Virus record (IMG/VR): IMGVR_UViG_2695420701_000018
DNA: 9,910 nt
Origin: a virus
Lineage: Duplodnaviria > Heunggongvirae > Uroviricota > Caudoviricetes
Strand: one strand, 5' to 3'
How positions within the stretch are numbered: position 1 is the first letter of the stretch; every line of letters starts with the position of its first letter. Positions 1,395 to 9,910 of this stretch are shown here, piece after piece. A program made the translations under genes and the position numbers. The notes under the pieces are model-generated. The model was not told the DNA's origin, searched no databases, and saw only the letters and a program-made list of their open reading frames with translations.

Positions 1395-4151
1395 ATGACA
1401 GTAAAAATTTCTGGCGTGCTTAAAGATGGCACAGGAAAACCAGTACAGAACTGCACCATTGTGCTGAAGGCCAGACGAACCAGCAGCACGATGGTGGTGA
1501 ACACGGTGGCCTCTGAAAATCCGGATGAAGCCGGACGTTACAGCATGGATGTTGAGCATGGTCAGTACAGCGTCACCCTGCTGGTTGAAGGTTTTCCGCC
1601 TTCACATGCCGGGACCATTACCGTCTATGAAGGTTCCAGACCAGGTACGCTGAATGATTTTCTCGGTGCCATGACGGAGGATGATGTCCGACCGGAGGCA
1701 CTGCGCCGCTTTGAGCAGATGGTGGAAGAGGTGTCACGTAACGCCTCCGCGGTTGCACAGAATACGGCAGCCGCGAAAAAATCAGCCAGCGAGGCGGCAA
1801 CTCATGCAACCGATGCTGCAGCCTCAGCACGTGCCGCCAGCACGTCAGCCGGACAGGCCGCGTCGTCGGCTCAGTCAGCGTCTTCCAGCGCAGGAACGGC
1901 ATCGACAAAGGCCCGTGAAGCAGCAAAAAGTGCTGCTGCAGAGTCATCAAAAAGCGCGGCAGCTACCAGCGCCAGTGCCGCGAAAACGTCAGAAACGAAT
2001 GCCGCAGCATCACAAAAATCGGCAGCCACTTCTGCATCCACAGCGACCACGAAGGCGTCAGAAGCTGCCACCTCGGCACGGGGTGCGGCGGCCTCAAAAG
2101 AGGCAGCGAAATCTTCAGAAACGAATGCATCATCAAGTGCCAGTAGTGCAGCTTCCTCGGCAACGGCGGCAGGAAATTCCGCGAAGGCGGCAAAAACGTC
2201 CGAGACGAACGCTAAGTCTTCTGAAACAGCAGCGGGACAGAGCGCCTCAGCTGCGGCAGGTTCAAAAACAGCGGCTGCATTATCTGCCAGTGCCGCGTCA
2301 ACAAGTGCCGGGCAGGCCTCAGCCAGTGCCACCGCCGCCGGAAAATCGGCAGAAAGCGCCGCATCATCCGCTTCAACAGCCACAACGAAGGCTGGCAAAG
2401 CCACTGAGCAAGCCACTGCAGCAGCGAGGTCTGCTTCTGCAGCAAAAACCTCTGAAACAAATGCAAAGACTTCAGCAGACAATGCTGCTTCCTCTAAGGC
2501 AGCAGCCGCATCGTCAGCCAGTTCAGCGGCGTCATCGGCATCATCTGCGTCTGCTTCAAAAGATGAGGCGACCAGACAAGCGTCAGCAGCGAAAGGTAGT
2601 GCCACGACAGCAACAACGAAAGCATCAGAGGCGGCAGGCAGTGCGACGGCTGCATCTCAGAGCAAAGTTGCTGCTGAATCCGCGGCAACGCGCGCCGAGA
2701 CAGCAGCAAAACGGGCAGAGGATATTGCATCCGCCGTGGCGCTTGAGGATGCGAGCACGACGAAAAAGGGGATAGTACAGCTCAGCAGTGCGACCAACAG
2801 CACTTCCGAGTCACTGGCGGCAACGCCAAAAGCGGTTAAGGCGGTAATGGGTGAAACGAACAAGAAAGCGCCCTTAAATAGTCCTGCACTGACCGGAACG
2901 CCAACAACACCAACTGCGCGACAGGGAACGAATAATACCCAAATCGCAAGCACGGCTTTCGTTATGGCTGCGATTGCCGCCCTTGTAGATTCGTCACCTG
3001 ATGCACTGAACACGCTGAACGAGCTGGCTGCGGCGCTGGGCAACGACCCGAATTTTGCGACCACCATGACTAACGCGCTTGCGGGTAAGCAACCGAAAGA
3101 TGCCACCCTGACGGCGCTGGCCGGACTTACTACTGCGGCAGGCAAGTTTCCGTATTTTACGGGGAATGATGTCGCCAGCCTGGCAACCCTGACAAAAGTC
3201 GGGCGGGATATTCTTGCGAAATCGACCGTTGCTGCCGTTATCGAATACCTCGGTTTACAGGAAACGGTAAACAAGGCTGGTAACGCCGTTCAGCGTTCCG
3301 GCGATAAAATGACCGGAGAACTGAAAATTGGCACGGTGAATGCGCTGCGAATTTTCAATGATACCTTCGGTCTAATTTTCCGTCGTTCAGAAGATTTTCT
3401 TCATTTCATTCCGACGGCTGAAGGACAAGGCGAAAACGGTAATATCGGCCCATTAAGGCCATTCGCTATAAATCTGAGAACAGGTGCTATATCTGTCAGC
3501 CACGGGGCCAAAATTAAAGGAGGTCTAGCTATTGGAGCTACTGATAACGCACTGGGTGAAAACTCCATTGTTCTGGGAGATAACGACACCGGATTTAGGC
3601 AAGATGGAGATGGTATTATTAGCTTCTATTCAAATGGTTCGCGCATCGGACATATTGATGAGTTAGGATTACATCTTTATAAAGATATTGAATCTAATGG
3701 CAGCAATTTTAGATTAAAAAGTAATTACCGCCACCACATTACATTCGCCAACGAAGACGGAAGAATTCGTATGTTTTTGTGGAAAGATAACGGTGGTGAT
3801 GGTGTTCATATTAATAACGGTTCAGATGGTGGTGGTGATTTCATTTTTAAAACAGATGGGGGATTTGCGCTGGGAAGTGGTGCGCAAGTTGCGTCTAGTG
3901 GCGATATTTATGGTTCAGTGTGGGAAAACAACTGGTTAAGCACATGGCTGCATAATCATGTCGTTCGGGATATTCGTCTTGGCAGCATTGAATATAAAAA
4001 CGTATGGCGCGACTACGGCTTTGGCGATGCGTCAGGTTATGTTTTAACAGCCGCAATTAACAGCAATGCGGATGATATTGTCGACACTGTTGCCAGAAGG
4101 CCAATTCAGAAATTGATTGGGGGAATATGGTACAACGTGGGGAGTGTTTAA
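1395..4151 (+). CDS. stf: Side tail fibre protein Stf, mosaic: lambda-like N-terminal two thirds, divergent C-terminal receptor-binding domain
   Basis: 918 aa. N-terminus [28 protein letters not shown] ... [14 protein letters not shown] matches lambda Stf as recalled. Long Ala/Ser/Thr-rich repeat region. Conserved region through GRDILAK...EYLG, then a different C-terminal domain containing the GDKMTGEL motif typical of distal tail-fibre domains. The domain after about base 3250 is visibly more AT-rich. Confidence 0.9.
1750..2770 (+). repeat. Low-complexity Ala/Ser/Thr-rich repeat tract inside stf (recurring AKTSETNA units)
   Basis: The unit A-K-[TS]-S-E-T-N-A recurs at least four times (nucleotide near-repeats beginning about 1979, 2107, 2191 and 2443). 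The GCN-rich composition generates the long spurious ORFs on other frames and the opposite strand. Confidence 0.7.
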
Positions 4152-7761: not shown

Positions 7762-7893
7762 GTTTACAGATGAGAAGAGGTGCACAGGCAGCCCGGCTTA
7801 CCATTCAAGAATCATGCCACAAAATACAGACAAATAAGCATTTCGTGAAATTATTCATATATCAATAAATTTCATTCATCGAACCAGACGAAA

Positions 7894-7909
7894 GCCCGTC
7901 GCGACGGGC
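7894..7909. other. Perfect 16-bp palindrome GCCCGTCGCGACGGGC in the non-coding region
   Basis: Verified by reverse-complementing. It lies 133 bp downstream of the 6073-7761 stop, with an AT-rich tract containing a TGAAATT/AATTTCA inverted repeat (7846-7874) just upstream. Possible protein-binding site, hairpin or recombination site. Confidence 0.3.
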
Positions 7910-8403
7910 ATTCCCCCAGAAAAACACCCCCCCACCAGACGCGCTGTATCGCATTCTGCAACATGCTTTAAGCAAATAAACGCGCGAGTCACCCTGAATT
8001 CAGCTCGTAACGCCTGAAAGCGTACACGCACGCTACGTGGATATTTCACGGCATGATGAGCCCAACACACGGCACGGGCGCAAGCCCCCCGCGCTTGCAC
8101 TCTTTACGATAAAAATTTTTTGCCAAATAAATTTGCGCAAAACGACACTCCAGATCGCGCCAGCACTGGCGCTTTACAAAAAAGCCATCTGGCACAAAGT
8201 GTCAAAGATTGCCAGGCTTTGCCAGATTAACGTTAAAAAAGGATCTGACAGAAAAATTAACCATATGAAAAACAAAACTATTTTTTGCTTTCGTCATTTT
8301 AAAGGATCTGAATGCCGCCAAAGTGCCACGCACAGGAACCACTTAACGCAATGAAATAAAAGGTAAAAACAAAACATTGGACAAGGATCGTTTTGGCGCA
8401 GCG

Positions 8404-8424
8404 TTACACAGTTTCACTGTGTAA
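8404..8424. promoter_or_regulatory. Inverted repeat TTACACAG-5 nt-CTGTGTAA upstream of the hok-like gene
   Basis: Perfect 8-bp arms separated by TTTCA, about 280 bp upstream of the hok start. Candidate operator or RNA structural element in the toxin leader. Confidence 0.25.
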
Positions 8425-8706
8425 CTATTTTCAGGCGCAAGCAAAAACCGCTCACGAAGGCAGCGACAAAAGCGGCAAAATTTTAACTTTCGCGGAGAAC
8501 CGAACGGGTGACGTGAAACTTTACGTAGCAGAGAAGCGGGAAATCAGTAGAATAATCGCGGGTGCCTTTCGGCTGATGGTCGGAGGGAATACCCGAAGGC
8601 CGGATGTGGAAAGGCCCCGGAAAACATTTCTGTTTAACCGAGGCCCTAACATATCTACCTTAAGCAAGTGATAGGTTAGCGCCTCTCCAACAAAGGAGCA
8701 AGCGCT

Positions 8707-8847
8707 ATGTCGCAAAAATCGCTTACGGCCATCACGTTCTGCGTGACGGCAATCCTCATCATCTGGATGCTGCACGGTTCGCTGTGTGAAATACGGATGA
8801 GCTTCTGGGGAGCGGAGTTTGCGGCGTTCTTACAGTGTAAACAGTAA
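8707..8847 (+). CDS. hok: Hok/Gef-family type I toxin (small membrane peptide), 46 aa
   Basis: Absent from the ORF track, presumably below its length cut-off. Translation MSQKSLTAITFCVTAILIIWMLHGSLCEIRMSFWGAEFAAFLQCKQ has one hydrophobic TM segment followed by SLCEIR ... E-x-AAF, as in Hok from plasmid R1 (...[26 protein letters not shown]) and HokA (...ELAAFLACKLKE). AGGAG RBS 8 nt upstream. A stable hairpin (8857-8878) and a terminator lie downstream. Confidence 0.7.
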   Translation: MSQKSLTAITFCVTAILIIWMLHGSLCEIRMSFWGAEFAAFLQCKQ

Positions 8848-8934
8848 GGAAACCGCGACGGGGGAGCAATCCCCCGTCAATCGGTTGCTAAGGTTGGCTG
8901 AAGTGGCACCCTATCTCACAGACGTGAACAACAA

Positions 8935-8967
8935 ACCCGCAGCGTAAGAACTGCGGGTTTTCTTTTT
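8935..8967 (+). terminator. Rho-independent terminator downstream of the hok-like gene (possibly bidirectional)
   Basis: ACCCGCAG (8935-8942), loop CGTAAGAA, CTGCGGGT (8951-8958), then TTTCTTTTT. On the minus strand the stem is followed by a weaker U-rich tract, so it may also terminate the 9036-9317 gene. Confidence 0.7.
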
Positions 8968-9035
8968 GGAACTATCACTAGCTAGTGTACCGTTAACGGC
9001 ACATAATGCTCGCACAACAAACCTGTTAAAAGAGA

Positions 9036-9317
9036 TTACTCAGCATTCTCCTGCTTCCATTGCCGGATCATTTCATCGGTAACATCACCCTCATAACATA
9101 CCACGTCATACCCTCCATTACGGCTATATGCACTGCGTCCACCACATCTACTACCATTCCTTGCATGATTATAAGGACACGCACAATTGCCTGGATAAGA
9201 TTCAATGGATTCTTTAATTATTTCTTTTTTGATCTGAGCATCAGACTTTCCTGTTGCTGCATATCCACTAAAAGATACTAAACAAAGGCAGATTGCCATT
9301 AATAAACCACATCGCAT
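9036..9317 (-). CDS. Small secreted Cys-containing protein (signal peptide plus about 70 aa mature domain), function unknown
   Basis: Probable start at the Met of MRCGLLMAICLCLVSFSGYAATG (complement of CAT at 9315-9317), a typical Sec signal peptide. The ORF-track N-terminal extension to 9431 has no signal-like character. Mature part contains CACPY...RCGGRSAYSRNGGYDVVCYEG with 4 Cys. AT-rich relative to neighbours. Confidence 0.6.
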   Translation of the reverse strand: MRCGLLMAICLCLVSFSGYAATGKSDAQIKKEIIKESIESYPGNCACPYNHARNGSRCGGRSAYSRNGGYDVVCYEGDVTDEMIRQWKQENAE

Positions 9318-9573
9318 ACCGATACACTCTATTACTAACCAATCATAGCCCACATCATAAAATCGAGATGAGGAGTACAATACCTTTAACAAGAAGGTGT
9401 CATAACGATAATATGTCGTGCAATTCATCAAAAAAAAGATCTATATCAAAGAGATAGAACTCTTATCAGTGCTTCAGACATCGGCATTCGAGGCAGCAGA
9501 AAAACAGTAAATCTGACGAATTTGCCTTTTCCCAAGATGTTGTCAGATTAAAAAAGATAGATTAGCGCAGGTA

Positions 9574-9717
9574 CCTGTTGGTGGATTGCAGGAGGAAAAA
9601 TGAAGTCGAGTGGAAAAATCCCAAAAAAATTTTTGTTTAACAGAGGTCCTGGTTCACTATGCGAAATACGGAGGAGCTGCAGAAGAATTCTGCTTCATCC
9701 TTAGAGTTTAAACAGCA
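9574..9717 (+). pseudogene. Decayed second copy of the hok-like locus (leader plus C-terminal coding remnant, N-terminal region deleted)
   Basis: 9574-9650 is alignable to 8576-8648 (both end in TGTTTAAC-GAGG-CCT) and 9651-9717 to 8776-8844 (GGTTC-CT-TG-GAAATACGGA...AGT-TAAACAG). The roughly 127 bp that in copy 1 carries the hok RBS, start codon and TM segment (8649-8775) is missing. The remnant frame reads LCEIRRSCRRILLHP-stop. Confidence 0.45.
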
Positions 9718-9793
9718 CGTGCACTACCATTGTTTCTGCATATCGCCACACCATCGCCACTCTACCGCCATTGCACAAAATACAAATACGAAA

Positions 9794-9813
9794 AAACCAC
9801 CCGAAGGTGGTTT
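9794..9813 (-). terminator. Rho-independent terminator downstream of the minus-strand tRNA
   Basis: AAACCACC (9794-9801), loop CGAA, GGTGGTTT (9806-9813). On the minus strand the stem is followed by UUUUUU (complement of the A-run 9791-9796), about 45 nt past the tRNA 3' end. Confidence 0.65.
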
Positions 9814-9856
9814 CACGACACTGCTTATTACTTTGATTTTATTCTTATCTTTCCCA

Positions 9857-9910
9857 TGGTACCCGGAGCGGGACTTGAACCCGCACAGCGCGAACGCCGA
9901 GGGATTTTAA
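9857..9910 (-). tRNA. leuZ: tRNA-Leu (anticodon UAA), 3' portion only; 5' part lies beyond the window
   Basis: Reverse complement of 9857-9910 reads TTAAAATCCCTCGGCGTTCGCGCTGTGCGGGTTCAAGTCCCGCTCCGGGTACCA: anticodon loop with UAA, long class II variable arm, T-arm GGTTCAAGTCC, acceptor stem and encoded CCA. Matches the E. coli leuZ sequence as I recall it. Confidence 0.85.

What the first reader, a model, noticed from the sequence alone, without database searches (positions are those of the whole stretch)
8576..8968. Unannotated Hok/Gef-family type I toxin locus
A 46-codon ORF invisible in the ORF track encodes a single TM helix followed by SLCEIR...EFAAF, the hallmark of Hok-family membrane toxins. 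It has a strong RBS, a GC hairpin just after the stop (8857-8878) and an intrinsic terminator (8935-8967). Known hok loci are controlled by an antisense RNA (Sok) and a leader ORF (mok) that overlaps hok. Here the only upstream frame (TTG-initiated, 8393-8671) ends 36 nt before hok, so if the toxin is regulated its control may differ from the classical mok overlap.
Basis: partly seen in the sequence, partly recalled or inferred. Interest (0 to 1): 0.65.

Follow-up and report, generated by a model that had tools for sequence, protein, structure and literature searches.

The report
Known prophage Hok/Sok toxin locus
This is a real, intact copy of a well-known bacterial "host-killing" toxin/antisense-RNA module carried by E. 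coli prophages; it is already annotated and its peptide has already been shown to be toxic. The only unusual point is that this lineage lacks the usual leader reading frame (mok).

Summary
The 46-codon ORF at 8707-8847 is a Hok/Gef toxin (Pfam 29.9 bits against a cut-off of 22; PHROG 251, E 1e-22). It lies in a roughly 408-nt hok mRNA (8560-8967) that has the family's RNA architecture. The 5' and 3' ends pair. The hok ribosome-binding site sits in a local hairpin. A protective 3' hairpin (8857-8878) and a terminator follow. On the minus strand there is a Sok-type promoter and hairpin.

It is not new. The window is E. coli chromosome beside leuZ, and RefSeq annotates the gene as WP_000078916.1. 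About 1,700 of 5,426 complete E. coli genomes carry this lineage, as do P2-like and Stx-converting phages. The exact peptide is Hok "72_1621" in a 2026 preprint that reports all but three named homologs as toxic.

Stop codons close all three frames at 8661-8679. The R1-equivalent start codon is AUA. Across 22 leader haplotypes the mok frame is closed in 11, and none has a proper start, while Hok itself stays under purifying selection.

The likely control is fold-back, 3' processing and Sok acting without mok. That last step is inferred, not shown.

Verdict: already known; low interest, with a modest regulatory question left open.

The parts
8548..8553 (+). Putative -10 box of the hok promoter (TAGAAT). 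The -35 region is poor and is not shared with relatives.
   Evidence: It lies 6 nt upstream of the inferred 5' end at 8560. The equivalent hexamer (TAGATT, TAGAAT, TACATT or TAAATT) is kept in all 12 loci aligned. Homology to the relatives begins here. The consensus scan did not call it, so it is inferred only.
8560..8967 (+). Full-length hok mRNA (about 408 nt).
   Evidence: The Rfam RF01794 model begins at the known +1 of R1 hok mRNA (L015 position 200/201). It begins at 8560 in the window. The 3' end is set by the terminator. The fold is -182 kcal/mol, z -8.8. The consensus structure has 98.5% of cells paired.
8560..8574 (+). 5'-end element (tac-like): GGGUGCC UUUCGGCU.
   Evidence: It pairs with 8896-8911 in the full-length fold. 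In the 3'-shortened RNA it pairs locally with 8575-8594 instead. Helices 1-2 are 99-100% paired, with one compensatory pair.
8896..8911 (+). Fold-back inhibitory element (fbi-like): GGCUGAAG U GGCACCC, the 3' partner of the 5' end.
   Evidence: GGCACCC is complementary to GGGUGCC and is almost invariant. The inner helix shows G-U, G-C and A-U variation.
8605..8665 (-). Predicted Sok-like antisense RNA (about 60 nt). It has a 5' single-stranded tail complementary to 8647-8665, a hairpin over 8613-8645, and ends near 8605.
   Evidence: The minus-strand fold is -31.1 kcal/mol, z -4.0. Its position relative to the hok AUG (-42 to -102) matches annotated SokC (-49 to -107) and SokB (-48 to -104) of K-12. 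The ends are inferred, not mapped.
8673..8701 (-). Sok-type promoter: -35 TTGCTC (reverse complement of 8696-8701), 17-nt spacer, -10 TAACCT (reverse complement of 8673-8678).
   Evidence: Read directly from the sequence. It has the same layout as R1, which has TTGCGC, a 17-nt spacer and TATCCT, read from L015. Both hexamers are invariant in 27 distinct relatives. The simple scan did not call it because the -10 matches only 3 of 6 positions.
8640..8679 (+). mok-equivalent region without a mok. It holds GAGG at 8640-8643 and AUA at 8651-8653 where R1 has the mok AUG. Stops follow in all three frames: TAA 8661-63, TGA 8669-71, TAG 8672-74, TAG 8677-79.
   Evidence: R1 and hokB have an ATG at -58 and hokC at -57. 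No ATG, GTG or TTG occupies this place in any of 22 haplotypes.
8604..8663 (+). Short upstream ORF (ATG, 19 codons, TAA). It is probably not functional.
   Evidence: The ATG is conserved, but its frame ends after 1, 8, 19 or about 62 codons in different relatives.
8680..8705 (+). Local hairpin that sequesters the hok Shine-Dalgarno sequence: GCGCCUCUCC pairs with GGAGCAAGCGC.
   Evidence: It is present in the full-length and shortened folds, with pair probability of at least 0.97. Helices 8-9 are 98-99% paired. The local hairpin is -7.5 kcal/mol, against -13.8 for R1.
8707..8847 (+). hok: a 46-aa Hok/Gef membrane toxin (RefSeq WP_000078916.1; Hok 72_1621).
   Evidence: pN/pS is 0-0.57, with 0 non-synonymous against 3-8 synonymous changes between close alleles.
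8857..8878 (+). GC hairpin, the probable 3' end and protective stem of the processed (active) mRNA.
   Evidence: Helix 17 has 4 of 9 pairs with compensatory changes. It occupies the same place as the R1 hairpin GGCGGGCGCAGGCCCGCC, which ends the 361-nt form (PMC9841398).
8933..8967 (+). Intrinsic terminator.
   Evidence: 10-bp stem, T-run. Helix 18 has 2 compensatory pairs.

Best explanation
[quoted passage not shown] It belongs to a lineage carried by P2-like and Stx-converting prophages of E. coli, and here it lies between a prophage and the leuZ tRNA gene.

The proposed mechanism runs as follows.

- A weak promoter makes a roughly 408-nt hok mRNA (8560-8967).
- The 5' end of that mRNA pairs with a 3' element (8896-8911), which locks the RNA in an inert, stable form.
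- Slow 3' trimming back to the GC hairpin (8857-8878) removes this lock.
- A short, unstable antisense RNA (Sok-like, about 8665 to 8605 on the minus strand) is made from a promoter that overlaps the hok ribosome-binding site.
- Sok pairs with the leader and keeps the toxin off while the element is present and transcribed.
- If Sok decays, the 46-aa Hok peptide is made and damages the inner membrane.

This lineage differs from plasmid R1 in having no mok leader frame. Sok must therefore act by triggering cleavage of the duplex, by letting the CCUC anti-Shine-Dalgarno stretch re-close the hok ribosome-binding site, or both.

What is shown here: family membership, the RNA architecture, the absence of mok, and purifying selection on Hok.

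What comes from the literature: toxicity of this exact peptide.

What is inferred: transcription, 3' processing, Sok expression, and the mok-independent step.
For: Identity.
- Pfam HOK_GEF scores 29.9 bits against a cut-off of 22.
- PHROG 251 has E 1e-22.
- The locus is 99.7-100% identical to E. coli chromosomes, where the CDS is annotated as a Hok/Gef family protein.
- The exact peptide is Hok 72_1621 in Table S2 of bioRxiv 10.1101/2025.08.07.668861. It is not among the three homologs that paper reports as non-toxic.

RNA architecture.
- The Rfam hok-leader model matches 8560-8717 (E 1.3e-7).
- The full-length fold has z -8.8 and shows 5'-3' end pairing.
- 19 of 100 consensus pairs carry compensatory changes, against 6.3 in shuffles and 0-5 in slid controls.

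Sok.
- The -35, 17-nt spacer and -10 are laid out as in R1 and are invariant in 27 relatives.
- The antisense hairpin has z -4.0.
- Its position matches annotated SokB and SokC.

No mok.
- Searches show this.

Selection on Hok.
- pN/pS stays below 0.6, including between alleles that have stops in the mok frame.

Support for direct control.
- The modelled cost of opening the hok RBS is 13.5 kcal/mol in the full-length RNA and 9.3 in the processed form.
- It returns to 13.6 when the Sok target is masked.
- In R1 the hok RBS stays at 16-17.5, while the R1 mok RBS drops from 12.6 to 7.8.
- When the hok RBS is opened, the anti-SD pairs with GAGGC at 8640-8644, inside the Sok target.
Against: No expression data were available, so the promoters, transcript ends and processing are inferred by homology.

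The hok promoter has a poor -35, and neither promoter passed the simple consensus scan.

At equilibrium the hok Shine-Dalgarno is predicted to be paired even in the processed RNA, with P(unpaired) about 0.

The opening-energy contrast with classical loci depends on the sequence context chosen. In the roughly processed-length context (-147 to +175) the clade gives 6.3-11.4 kcal/mol, against 9.0 for hokC and 13.1-13.7 for hokB and R1. In shorter contexts the ordering is not kept.

In R1, loss of the mok start or early mok stops abolish Hok synthesis (PMC9841398). A mok-less leader could therefore be poorly translated.

The leader scores below Rfam's gathering threshold (44.8 against 59).
Confidence: 0.8

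Rival explanations
1. The locus is a translationally silent relic. The hok ORF and the RNA elements are intact, but because the leader frame that should open the hok ribosome-binding site is missing or interrupted, Hok is never made. This would resemble the inactivated hok loci of E. coli K-12.
For: In R1, mok start-codon mutations and premature mok stops upstream of hok abolish toxicity (PMC9841398).

The window allele has TAA at -46 in the frame that stays open in the commonest haplotype.

The hok SD is paired in every predicted fold.

An internally deleted hok remnant lies 700 nt downstream, so hok loci do decay at this site.
Against: Hok is under purifying selection in alleles with and without the stop. 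Window against L006, both closed, shows 5 synonymous and 0 non-synonymous changes.

Every RNA element is kept, with compensatory changes.

Stops in that frame occur in 11 of 22 haplotypes, at two different sites, and also in the large Stx-phage lineage.

Even the 'open' haplotypes have no start codon with a Shine-Dalgarno at the right place.

The SD hairpin is much weaker than in R1 (-7.5 against -13.8 kcal/mol).
Confidence: 0.17
2. The locus uses classical mok-type coupling through an unconventional leader ORF. Candidates are initiation at AUA 8651 after GAGG 8640-43, or the ATG 8604 ORF, whose translation would loosen the hok RBS hairpin.
For: GAGG is invariant and an AUH codon often follows it 7-10 nt later (AUA, AUC or AUU).

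The ATG at 8604 is conserved in all 12 loci aligned (one divergent Salmonella relative, L020, lacks it), with AAGG 4 nt upstream.
Against: The AUH codons fall in three different frames and are absent from the second most common haplotype.

The window's AUA frame stops at 8669-71 and the ATG-8604 frame at 8661-63. Both are upstream of the hairpin, which starts at 8680.

The ATG-8604 frame ends after 1 to about 62 codons in different relatives.

GAGG and the ATG both lie in conserved stems of the mRNA and of Sok, which is enough to explain their conservation.
Confidence: 0.03

Closest known systems
hok/sok/mok (parB) of plasmid R1
   Same: Hok/Gef toxin with the conserved C..T...LCE...E residues.

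A roughly 400-nt mRNA whose 5' end pairs with a 3' element.

A GC hairpin at the processed 3' end.

The hok SD in a local hairpin.

A Sok promoter with -35 overlapping the hok SD, a 17-nt spacer and a -10, and a Sok RNA of about 60 nt antisense to the leader.
   Different: There is no mok. R1 has an AUG at -58 after GAGG, and the frame runs to +154. The window has AUA there and stops in all frames.

The leader is divergent: 44.8 bits against 88.9 for R1 on RF01794.

The SD hairpin is weaker (-7.5 against -13.8 kcal/mol).

The toxin is shorter (46 against 52 aa).

It is carried by prophages, not plasmids.
Chromosomal hokB/sokB/mokB and hokC/sokC/mokC of E. coli K-12
   Same: The same family and the same position of Sok relative to the hok AUG.
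   Different: Both K-12 loci have an annotated mok with ATG at -58 or -57.

Both score 110-118 bits on the Rfam leader model.

The window peptide scores below the NCBIfam HokA and Hok cut-offs.
Hok cluster 72 (peptides 72_1621 and 72_1589) of Escalera-Maurer et al., bioRxiv 10.1101/2025.08.07.668861; 'MokW-like host killing' PHROG 251; the gene of P2-like phage P88
   Same: The window peptide is identical to 72_1621.

The locus is 97.6% identical to that of phage P88.

That paper notes the enrichment of hok in prophages.
   Different: There is no difference for the toxin.

That study tested coding sequences with a fixed SD. It explicitly did not analyse Mok or the native leaders.
hokW/sokW of Stx2 prophage Sp5 (PMC8621323)
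   Same: It is a prophage-borne hok/sok module. It has been shown to act as a type I TA and to aid lysis and phage release after induction, which is a plausible role here.
   Different: HokW (MKQQKAM...DYESEK, 51 aa) is a HokC-like peptide from another cluster.

Stx phages carry a cluster-72 hok as a separate locus next to lom.
Type I systems without a leader ORF (aapA/IsoA of H. pylori; tisB/istR-1)
   Same: In these systems toxin translation is controlled directly by mRNA folding, by processing and by an antisense RNA that binds away from the toxin's own start. This is what a mok-less hok would have to do. The comparison rests on general knowledge and on PMC9841398.
   Different: They are unrelated in sequence. 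No homology was tested or is claimed.

Membership tests
Hok/Gef toxin family (Pfam PF01848) | Profile score above the curated gathering threshold | tested here: met
   29.9 bits against 22, E 4.1e-7, residues 7-44 on profile positions 5-42 of 42. PHROG 251 scores 80.6 bits.
Hok/Gef toxin family (Pfam PF01848) | A peptide of about 50 aa with one N-terminal hydrophobic helix and the conserved residues M1, C16, T18, L30, C31, E32 and E41 of the family logo | tested here: met
   The window peptide has M1, C12, T14, L26, C27, E28 and E37 at the aligned positions. The logo is described, and the aligned row >1621 is.
Hok/Gef toxin family (Pfam PF01848) | Toxic to E. coli when expressed | not testable with these tools
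   From the literature only. The identical peptide 72_1621 was cloned (LRP137). 42 of 45 homologs were toxic, and the three exceptions are other peptides.
NCBIfam HokA equivalog and Hok subfamily | Score above the curated cut-off | tested here: not met
   34.0 bits against 89 for HokA, and 21.6 against 73 for the Hok subfamily. The peptide belongs to the superfamily but not to these named subfamilies.
[quoted passage not shown] | Long-range pairing of the mRNA 5' end with a 3' element (tac/fbi) | tested here: met
   8560-8574 pairs with 8896-8911. The helices are 99-100% paired in 27 sequences, with G-U, G-C and A-U variation.
[quoted passage not shown] | A cis-encoded antisense RNA (Sok) with its own promoter inside the hok leader | tested here: inconclusive
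   The promoter layout matches R1 and is invariant. The hairpin has z -4.0. The position matches annotated SokB and SokC. The consensus scan did not call the promoter, and there is no transcript evidence.
[quoted passage not shown] | A stable hairpin at the 3' end of the processed, active mRNA | tested here: met
   The hairpin at 8857-8878 has 4 of 9 pairs with compensatory changes. Processing itself could not be tested.
[quoted passage not shown] | An overlapping leader ORF (mok), with SD and start codon inside the Sok target, whose translation reaches the hok start | tested here: not met
   The window has AUA at the equivalent of the start and stops in all three frames at 8661-8679. In the lineage, 11 of 22 haplotypes have a stop in the mok frame and none has a start 5-10 nt after GAGG. 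The Stx-phage lineage is likewise closed.
Rfam RF01794 ('sok', in effect the hok mRNA leader) | Score above the gathering threshold of 59 bits | tested here: not met
   The window scores 44.8 bits (E 1.3e-7) and relatives score 47.6-48.3. hokC, hokB and R1 score 118, 110 and 89 bits. The leader is homologous but divergent.

The most novel reading that the evidence does not exclude
The prophage-borne 'cluster 72' hok/sok lineage has dispensed with mok. On this reading, 3' processing and Sok control the toxin's own ribosome-binding site directly. The GAGGC stretch inside the Sok target and the hok Shine-Dalgarno would compete for the same CCUC anti-SD. Sok binding, or the fold-back, would then re-lock the site without any leader-peptide translation. 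That would make it a natural variant of the textbook hok/sok/mok mechanism, present in about a third of E. coli genomes.
Probability: 0.35. Interest if true: 0.45.

Novelty: already known. Interest (0 to 1): 0.2.

Why it matters
As a gene find it adds nothing. The toxin is annotated, catalogued and reported as toxic.

The small residual value is regulatory. The hok/sok paradigm holds that Sok works only through mok, and mutational data for R1 show that mok is indispensable. Yet a very common prophage lineage keeps hok, Sok and the fold-back intact while letting the mok frame drift.

If Hok is expressed from these leaders, the textbook mechanism is not universal within the family. Annotation pipelines and Rfam's leader model (which scores this clade below threshold) would then need adjusting.

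The function for the prophage is open. It could be maintenance, help with lysis as for hokW, or exclusion of other phages.

Tried and rejected
1. A chance ORF. Rejected on the profile scores, the purifying selection and the covarying RNA structure.

2. The TTG frame 8393-8671 as mok. Rejected because it starts 167 nt upstream of the mRNA 5' end. Homology with relatives begins only at 8548 and the upstream flanks are unrelated.

3. The ATG-8604 ORF as mok. Rejected because its frame ends after 1, 8, 19 or about 62 codons in different relatives.

4. An in-frame N-terminal extension, as in mokC. Excluded by the TAG at 8677-79.

5. Identity with the experimentally studied hokW. Rejected because the primers show that HokW is a HokC-like peptide.

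6. A link to the P2 defence hotspots. The two hotspot papers do not mention hok, and the one read in detail (PMC9122126) places its P2 hotspot between gpA and gpQ, next to cos, not between ogr and the attachment site.

7. A search of species-representative genomes gave only 5 loci (Escherichia, Salmonella and two likely contaminants). The clade is therefore narrow and adds little depth for covariation.

8. The weak Rfam isrG and IS009 hits elsewhere in the window are far below threshold, lie inside phage tail genes, and were not pursued.

9. Opening-energy modelling was tried as a test of mok independence. It is suggestive but depends on context, so it is not used as proof.

10. Literature searches found no paper that describes mok-less hok loci. 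Pedersen & Gerdes 1999 is not held.

Full report
**Observation.** The window holds a 46-codon ORF at 8707-8847 on the plus strand, encoding MSQKSLTAITFCVTAILIIWMLHGSLCEIRMSFWGAEFAAFLQCKQ. GGAG lies at 8695-8698, a GC hairpin at 8857-8878, and a terminator at 8933-8967. The peptide passes Pfam's curated threshold for HOK_GEF (29.9 bits against 22, E 4e-7). It matches PHROG 251, 'MokW-like host killing', over its full length (80.6 bits, E 1e-22). It stays below the NCBIfam cut-offs for HokA and for the Hok subfamily.

**Where it comes from.** The region is 99.7-100% identical to six complete E. coli chromosomes. Relatives at 73-98% identity cover at least 80% of the locus in 1,701 of 5,426 complete E. 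coli genomes, with up to nine copies per genome.

- RefSeq annotates the ORF as 'Hok/Gef family protein' WP_000078916.1.
- In the window it lies between prophage tail and baseplate genes and the leuZ-cysT-glyW tRNA operon, next to pgsA-uvrC.
- In most other genomes the same module directly follows the ogr/Delta gene at the end of P2-like prophages, at various insertion sites such as leuZ and serS.
- It is also present in sequenced phages: the P2-like phage P88 at 97.6%, Chuche, Xuanwuvirus, and about 176 Stx-converting phages at about 82%, where it sits next to lom.
- IMG/VR holds 310 relatives.
- Only five species-representative genomes carry it, all Escherichia or Salmonella apart from two likely contaminants.

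**Prior knowledge.** The exact peptide is entry 72_1621 (cluster 72, plasmid LRP137) in Table S2 of Escalera-Maurer et al., bioRxiv 10.1101/2025.08.07.668861.

- That study catalogued 32,532 hok loci and found hok enriched in prophages.
- It reports that 42 of 45 cloned homologs were toxic on induction. The three exceptions are other peptides.
- It did not analyse Mok or the native leaders, calling Mok identification 'not trivial'.

The toxin is therefore already known.

**RNA architecture.** Rfam's RF01794 is named 'sok'. In fact it matches the hok-sense leader from the mRNA +1 to the hok AUG. In K-12 it hits the strand of hokC and hokB, not the strand of the annotated sokC and sokB. In the R1-type locus it starts at the known +1.

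- In the window it aligns to 8560-8717 (44.8 bits, E 1.3e-7, below the gathering score of 59). This places the hok mRNA 5' end at about 8560.
- The 408-nt transcript 8560-8967 folds at -182 kcal/mol (z -8.8). GGGUGCCUUUCGGCU (8560-8574) pairs with GGCUGAAG-GGCACCC (8896-8911), which is the tac/fbi fold-back of the family.
- In a 3'-shortened RNA ending after the 8857-8878 hairpin, the 5' end instead folds locally.
- I aligned 27 distinct full-length relatives. The RNAalifold consensus keeps the end pairing, the hok Shine-Dalgarno hairpin (8680-8689 with 8695-8705), the 3' hairpin and the terminator.
- On that structure 98.5% of cells are paired and 19 of 100 pairs carry compensatory changes. 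Column shuffles give 6.3 +/- 1.6, and sliding the partners by 1-3 columns gives 0-5. The consensus was derived from the same alignment, so the paired percentage is inflated. The compensatory counts are the more meaningful figure.

**Sok.** On the minus strand the sequence reads TTGCTC (reverse complement of 8696-8701), a 17-nt spacer, then TAACCT (reverse complement of 8673-8678).

- This is the same layout as R1's TTGCGC, 17-nt spacer and TATCCT.
- Both hexamers are invariant in the 27 relatives.
- The simple scan did not call the promoter, because the -10 matches only three of six positions.
- The downstream antisense RNA would have a roughly 19-nt single-stranded 5' tail, a strong hairpin over 8613-8645 and a modest U-rich end (-31 kcal/mol, z -4.0).
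- Relative to the hok AUG it spans about -42 to -102. Annotated SokC spans -49 to -107 and SokB -48 to -104.
- The part of the leader facing the Sok tail (8647-8665) is the most variable stretch of the module, with substitutions and 1-nt indels, even among loci that encode the identical peptide. This fits diversification of Sok specificity among the several copies per genome. That reading is an inference.

**mok.** In R1 and hokB an ATG lies 58 nt before the hok ATG, 8 nt after GAGG, and its frame overlaps hok. In hokC an in-frame ATG lies at -57.

- In the window the aligned triplet is AUA (8651-8653).
- Stops then follow in all three frames: TAA 8661-63, TGA 8669-71, TAG 8672-74 and TAG 8677-79. 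No frame with a start codon reaches the hok ribosome-binding site.
It is not a gene.
- I examined 97 loci, which gave 22 distinct GAGG-to-ATG haplotypes. The frame used by R1 mok has a stop (at -46 or -19) in 11 and is open in 11. That is about what an unconstrained 22-codon stretch would give.
- No haplotype has ATG, GTG or TTG 5-10 nt after GAGG.
- The Stx-phage lineage is closed in all three frames too.
- A conserved ATG at 8604 heads a frame that ends after 1, 8, 19 or about 62 codons depending on the allele.
- Meanwhile Hok stays under purifying selection. pN/pS is 0-0.57, and close pairs show 0 non-synonymous against 3-8 synonymous changes. This includes window against L006, both of which have a closed frame.

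The lineage therefore keeps the toxin, Sok and the fold-back, but not mok.

**How it probably works.** The steps supported by homology and structure are a stable, folded, inert full-length mRNA, activation by 3' trimming to the 8857-8878 hairpin, and repression by a short-lived Sok.

The step that must differ from R1 is how Sok blocks Hok synthesis. In R1, mok start-codon mutations and early mok stops abolish toxicity (PMC9841398). A mok-less leader is therefore either silent or uses another route.

Thermodynamic modelling gives a hint of another route.

| Ribosome-binding site | Full-length RNA | Processed RNA | Processed, Sok target masked |
|---|---|---|---|
| Window hok | 13.5 kcal/mol | 9.3 | 13.6 |
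| R1 hok | 17.5 | 16.0 | 18.2 |
| R1 mok | 12.6 | 7.8 | not computed |

- These are the modelled costs of opening each site.
- The local SD hairpin is -7.5 kcal/mol in the window against -13.8 in R1.
- When the hok RBS is forced open, the freed GCCUC pairs with GAGGC at 8640-44, inside the Sok target.

This suggests that GAGGC and the hok SD compete for one anti-SD, and that Sok or the fold-back tips the balance.

Caveats apply. The SD is still predicted to be paired at equilibrium. The contrast with classical loci varies with the sequence context used. All the stems involved are invariant, so covariation cannot test them. RNase III cleavage of the Sok-hok duplex, known for R1 and hokW, would work without mok in any case.

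**Rivals.**

- A silent relic remains possible (about 0.17). The R1 genetics favour it, and a decayed hok copy sits nearby. Against it are the purifying selection, the preserved RNA elements, and the recurrence of closed frames in several large lineages.
- Coupling through a non-canonical leader ORF is unlikely (about 0.03).

**Comparison and verdict.** The locus belongs to the Hok/Gef family and has the hok/sok RNA organisation. It fails one defining feature of the R1 paradigm (mok) and scores below the Rfam and NCBIfam subfamily thresholds, so it is a divergent but recognised lineage.

HokW of Sp5, the one prophage hok studied functionally, is a different, HokC-like peptide. Its role in aiding lysis and phage release is a plausible analogy only.

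The finding is already known as a gene and of low interest. The lack of mok in a lineage present in about a third of E. coli genomes is a modest open regulatory question. I found it addressed in no held paper.

Noticed in passing
window 9562-9720 (+): There is a second, decayed hok locus between the intact one and leuZ. Its 5' leader aligns with 8555-8646 (for example TTTTTGTTTAACAGAGGTCC against TTTCTGTTTAACCGAGGCCC). It then jumps to the hok 3' half (TTCACTATGCGAAATACGG against TTCGCTGTGTGAAATACGG). An internal deletion of about 130 nt has removed the Sok promoter, the hok SD and start, and the membrane helix. The region 9440-9830 that contains it is covered at 80% or more in 615 of 5,426 E. 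coli genomes. It suggests repeated arrival of hok-bearing prophages at this site.
   Followed up: partly
window 9036-9317 (-): This is a 93-aa ORF with a signal-peptide-like N-terminus and several cysteines (RefSeq WP_001303543.1, 'hypothetical protein'). It matches PHROG 27544, of unknown function (E 7e-58). It is a constant neighbour of this hok module at the leuZ site, including in O157:H7.
   Followed up: partly
window 8548 (junction) and 7762-8560: Similarity to the O157:H7 and P2-remnant versions of the module begins exactly at the hok -10 box (8548). The DNA upstream is unrelated to what precedes hok elsewhere (ogr/Delta, another hok, lom). It is about 800 nt with no annotated gene and a terminator-like hairpin at 8403-8425. 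The module therefore seems to move or recombine with its 5' boundary inside its own promoter, which leaves the -35 region different in each context.
   Followed up: partly
window 8560-8717; L013, L014, L015: Rfam family RF01794, named 'sok antitoxin', matches the hok-sense strand from the mRNA +1 to the hok AUG. In K-12 its hits lie on the strand opposite to the annotated sokB and sokC. In practice it models the hok leader. This prophage clade scores only 45-48 bits, below the 59-bit gathering score, so default Rfam annotation would miss it.
   Followed up: yes
window 8647-8665 and the same stretch in L002-L101: The leader segment facing the predicted single-stranded 5' tail of Sok is hypervariable, with 22 haplotypes and 1-nt indels, even among loci that encode the identical Hok peptide. 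The flanking stems are invariant. This would fit selection for copy-specific Sok recognition in genomes with up to nine copies.
   Followed up: partly
L021-L100 (IMG/VR): In about half of the 80 viral contigs fetched, the predicted prophage ends 3 nt after the hok stop codon. Automated prophage boundaries therefore cut the hok mRNA and lose its 3' regulatory elements.
   Followed up: no
L101 1201-1567 (Stx2a-converting phage) and about 176 similar records: Stx-converting phages carry a cluster-72 hok (peptide 72_1589) next to lom. It appears to be a different locus from the published hokW, whose primers encode an unrelated HokC-like peptide. It is unannotated in many of these phage records.
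   Followed up: partly
window 9857-9910 (-): The window ends inside tRNA-Leu (leuZ). ARAGORN reports nothing because the gene is cut off. The assignment comes from the RefSeq annotation of the matching genome.
   Followed up: yes
window 1951-2712 (-): Three weak, tandem matches to the Rfam isrG model (19-27 bits against a gathering score of 100) lie inside the phage tail-fibre gene. They probably reflect a repetitive GC-rich coding repeat and not an sRNA.
   Followed up: no
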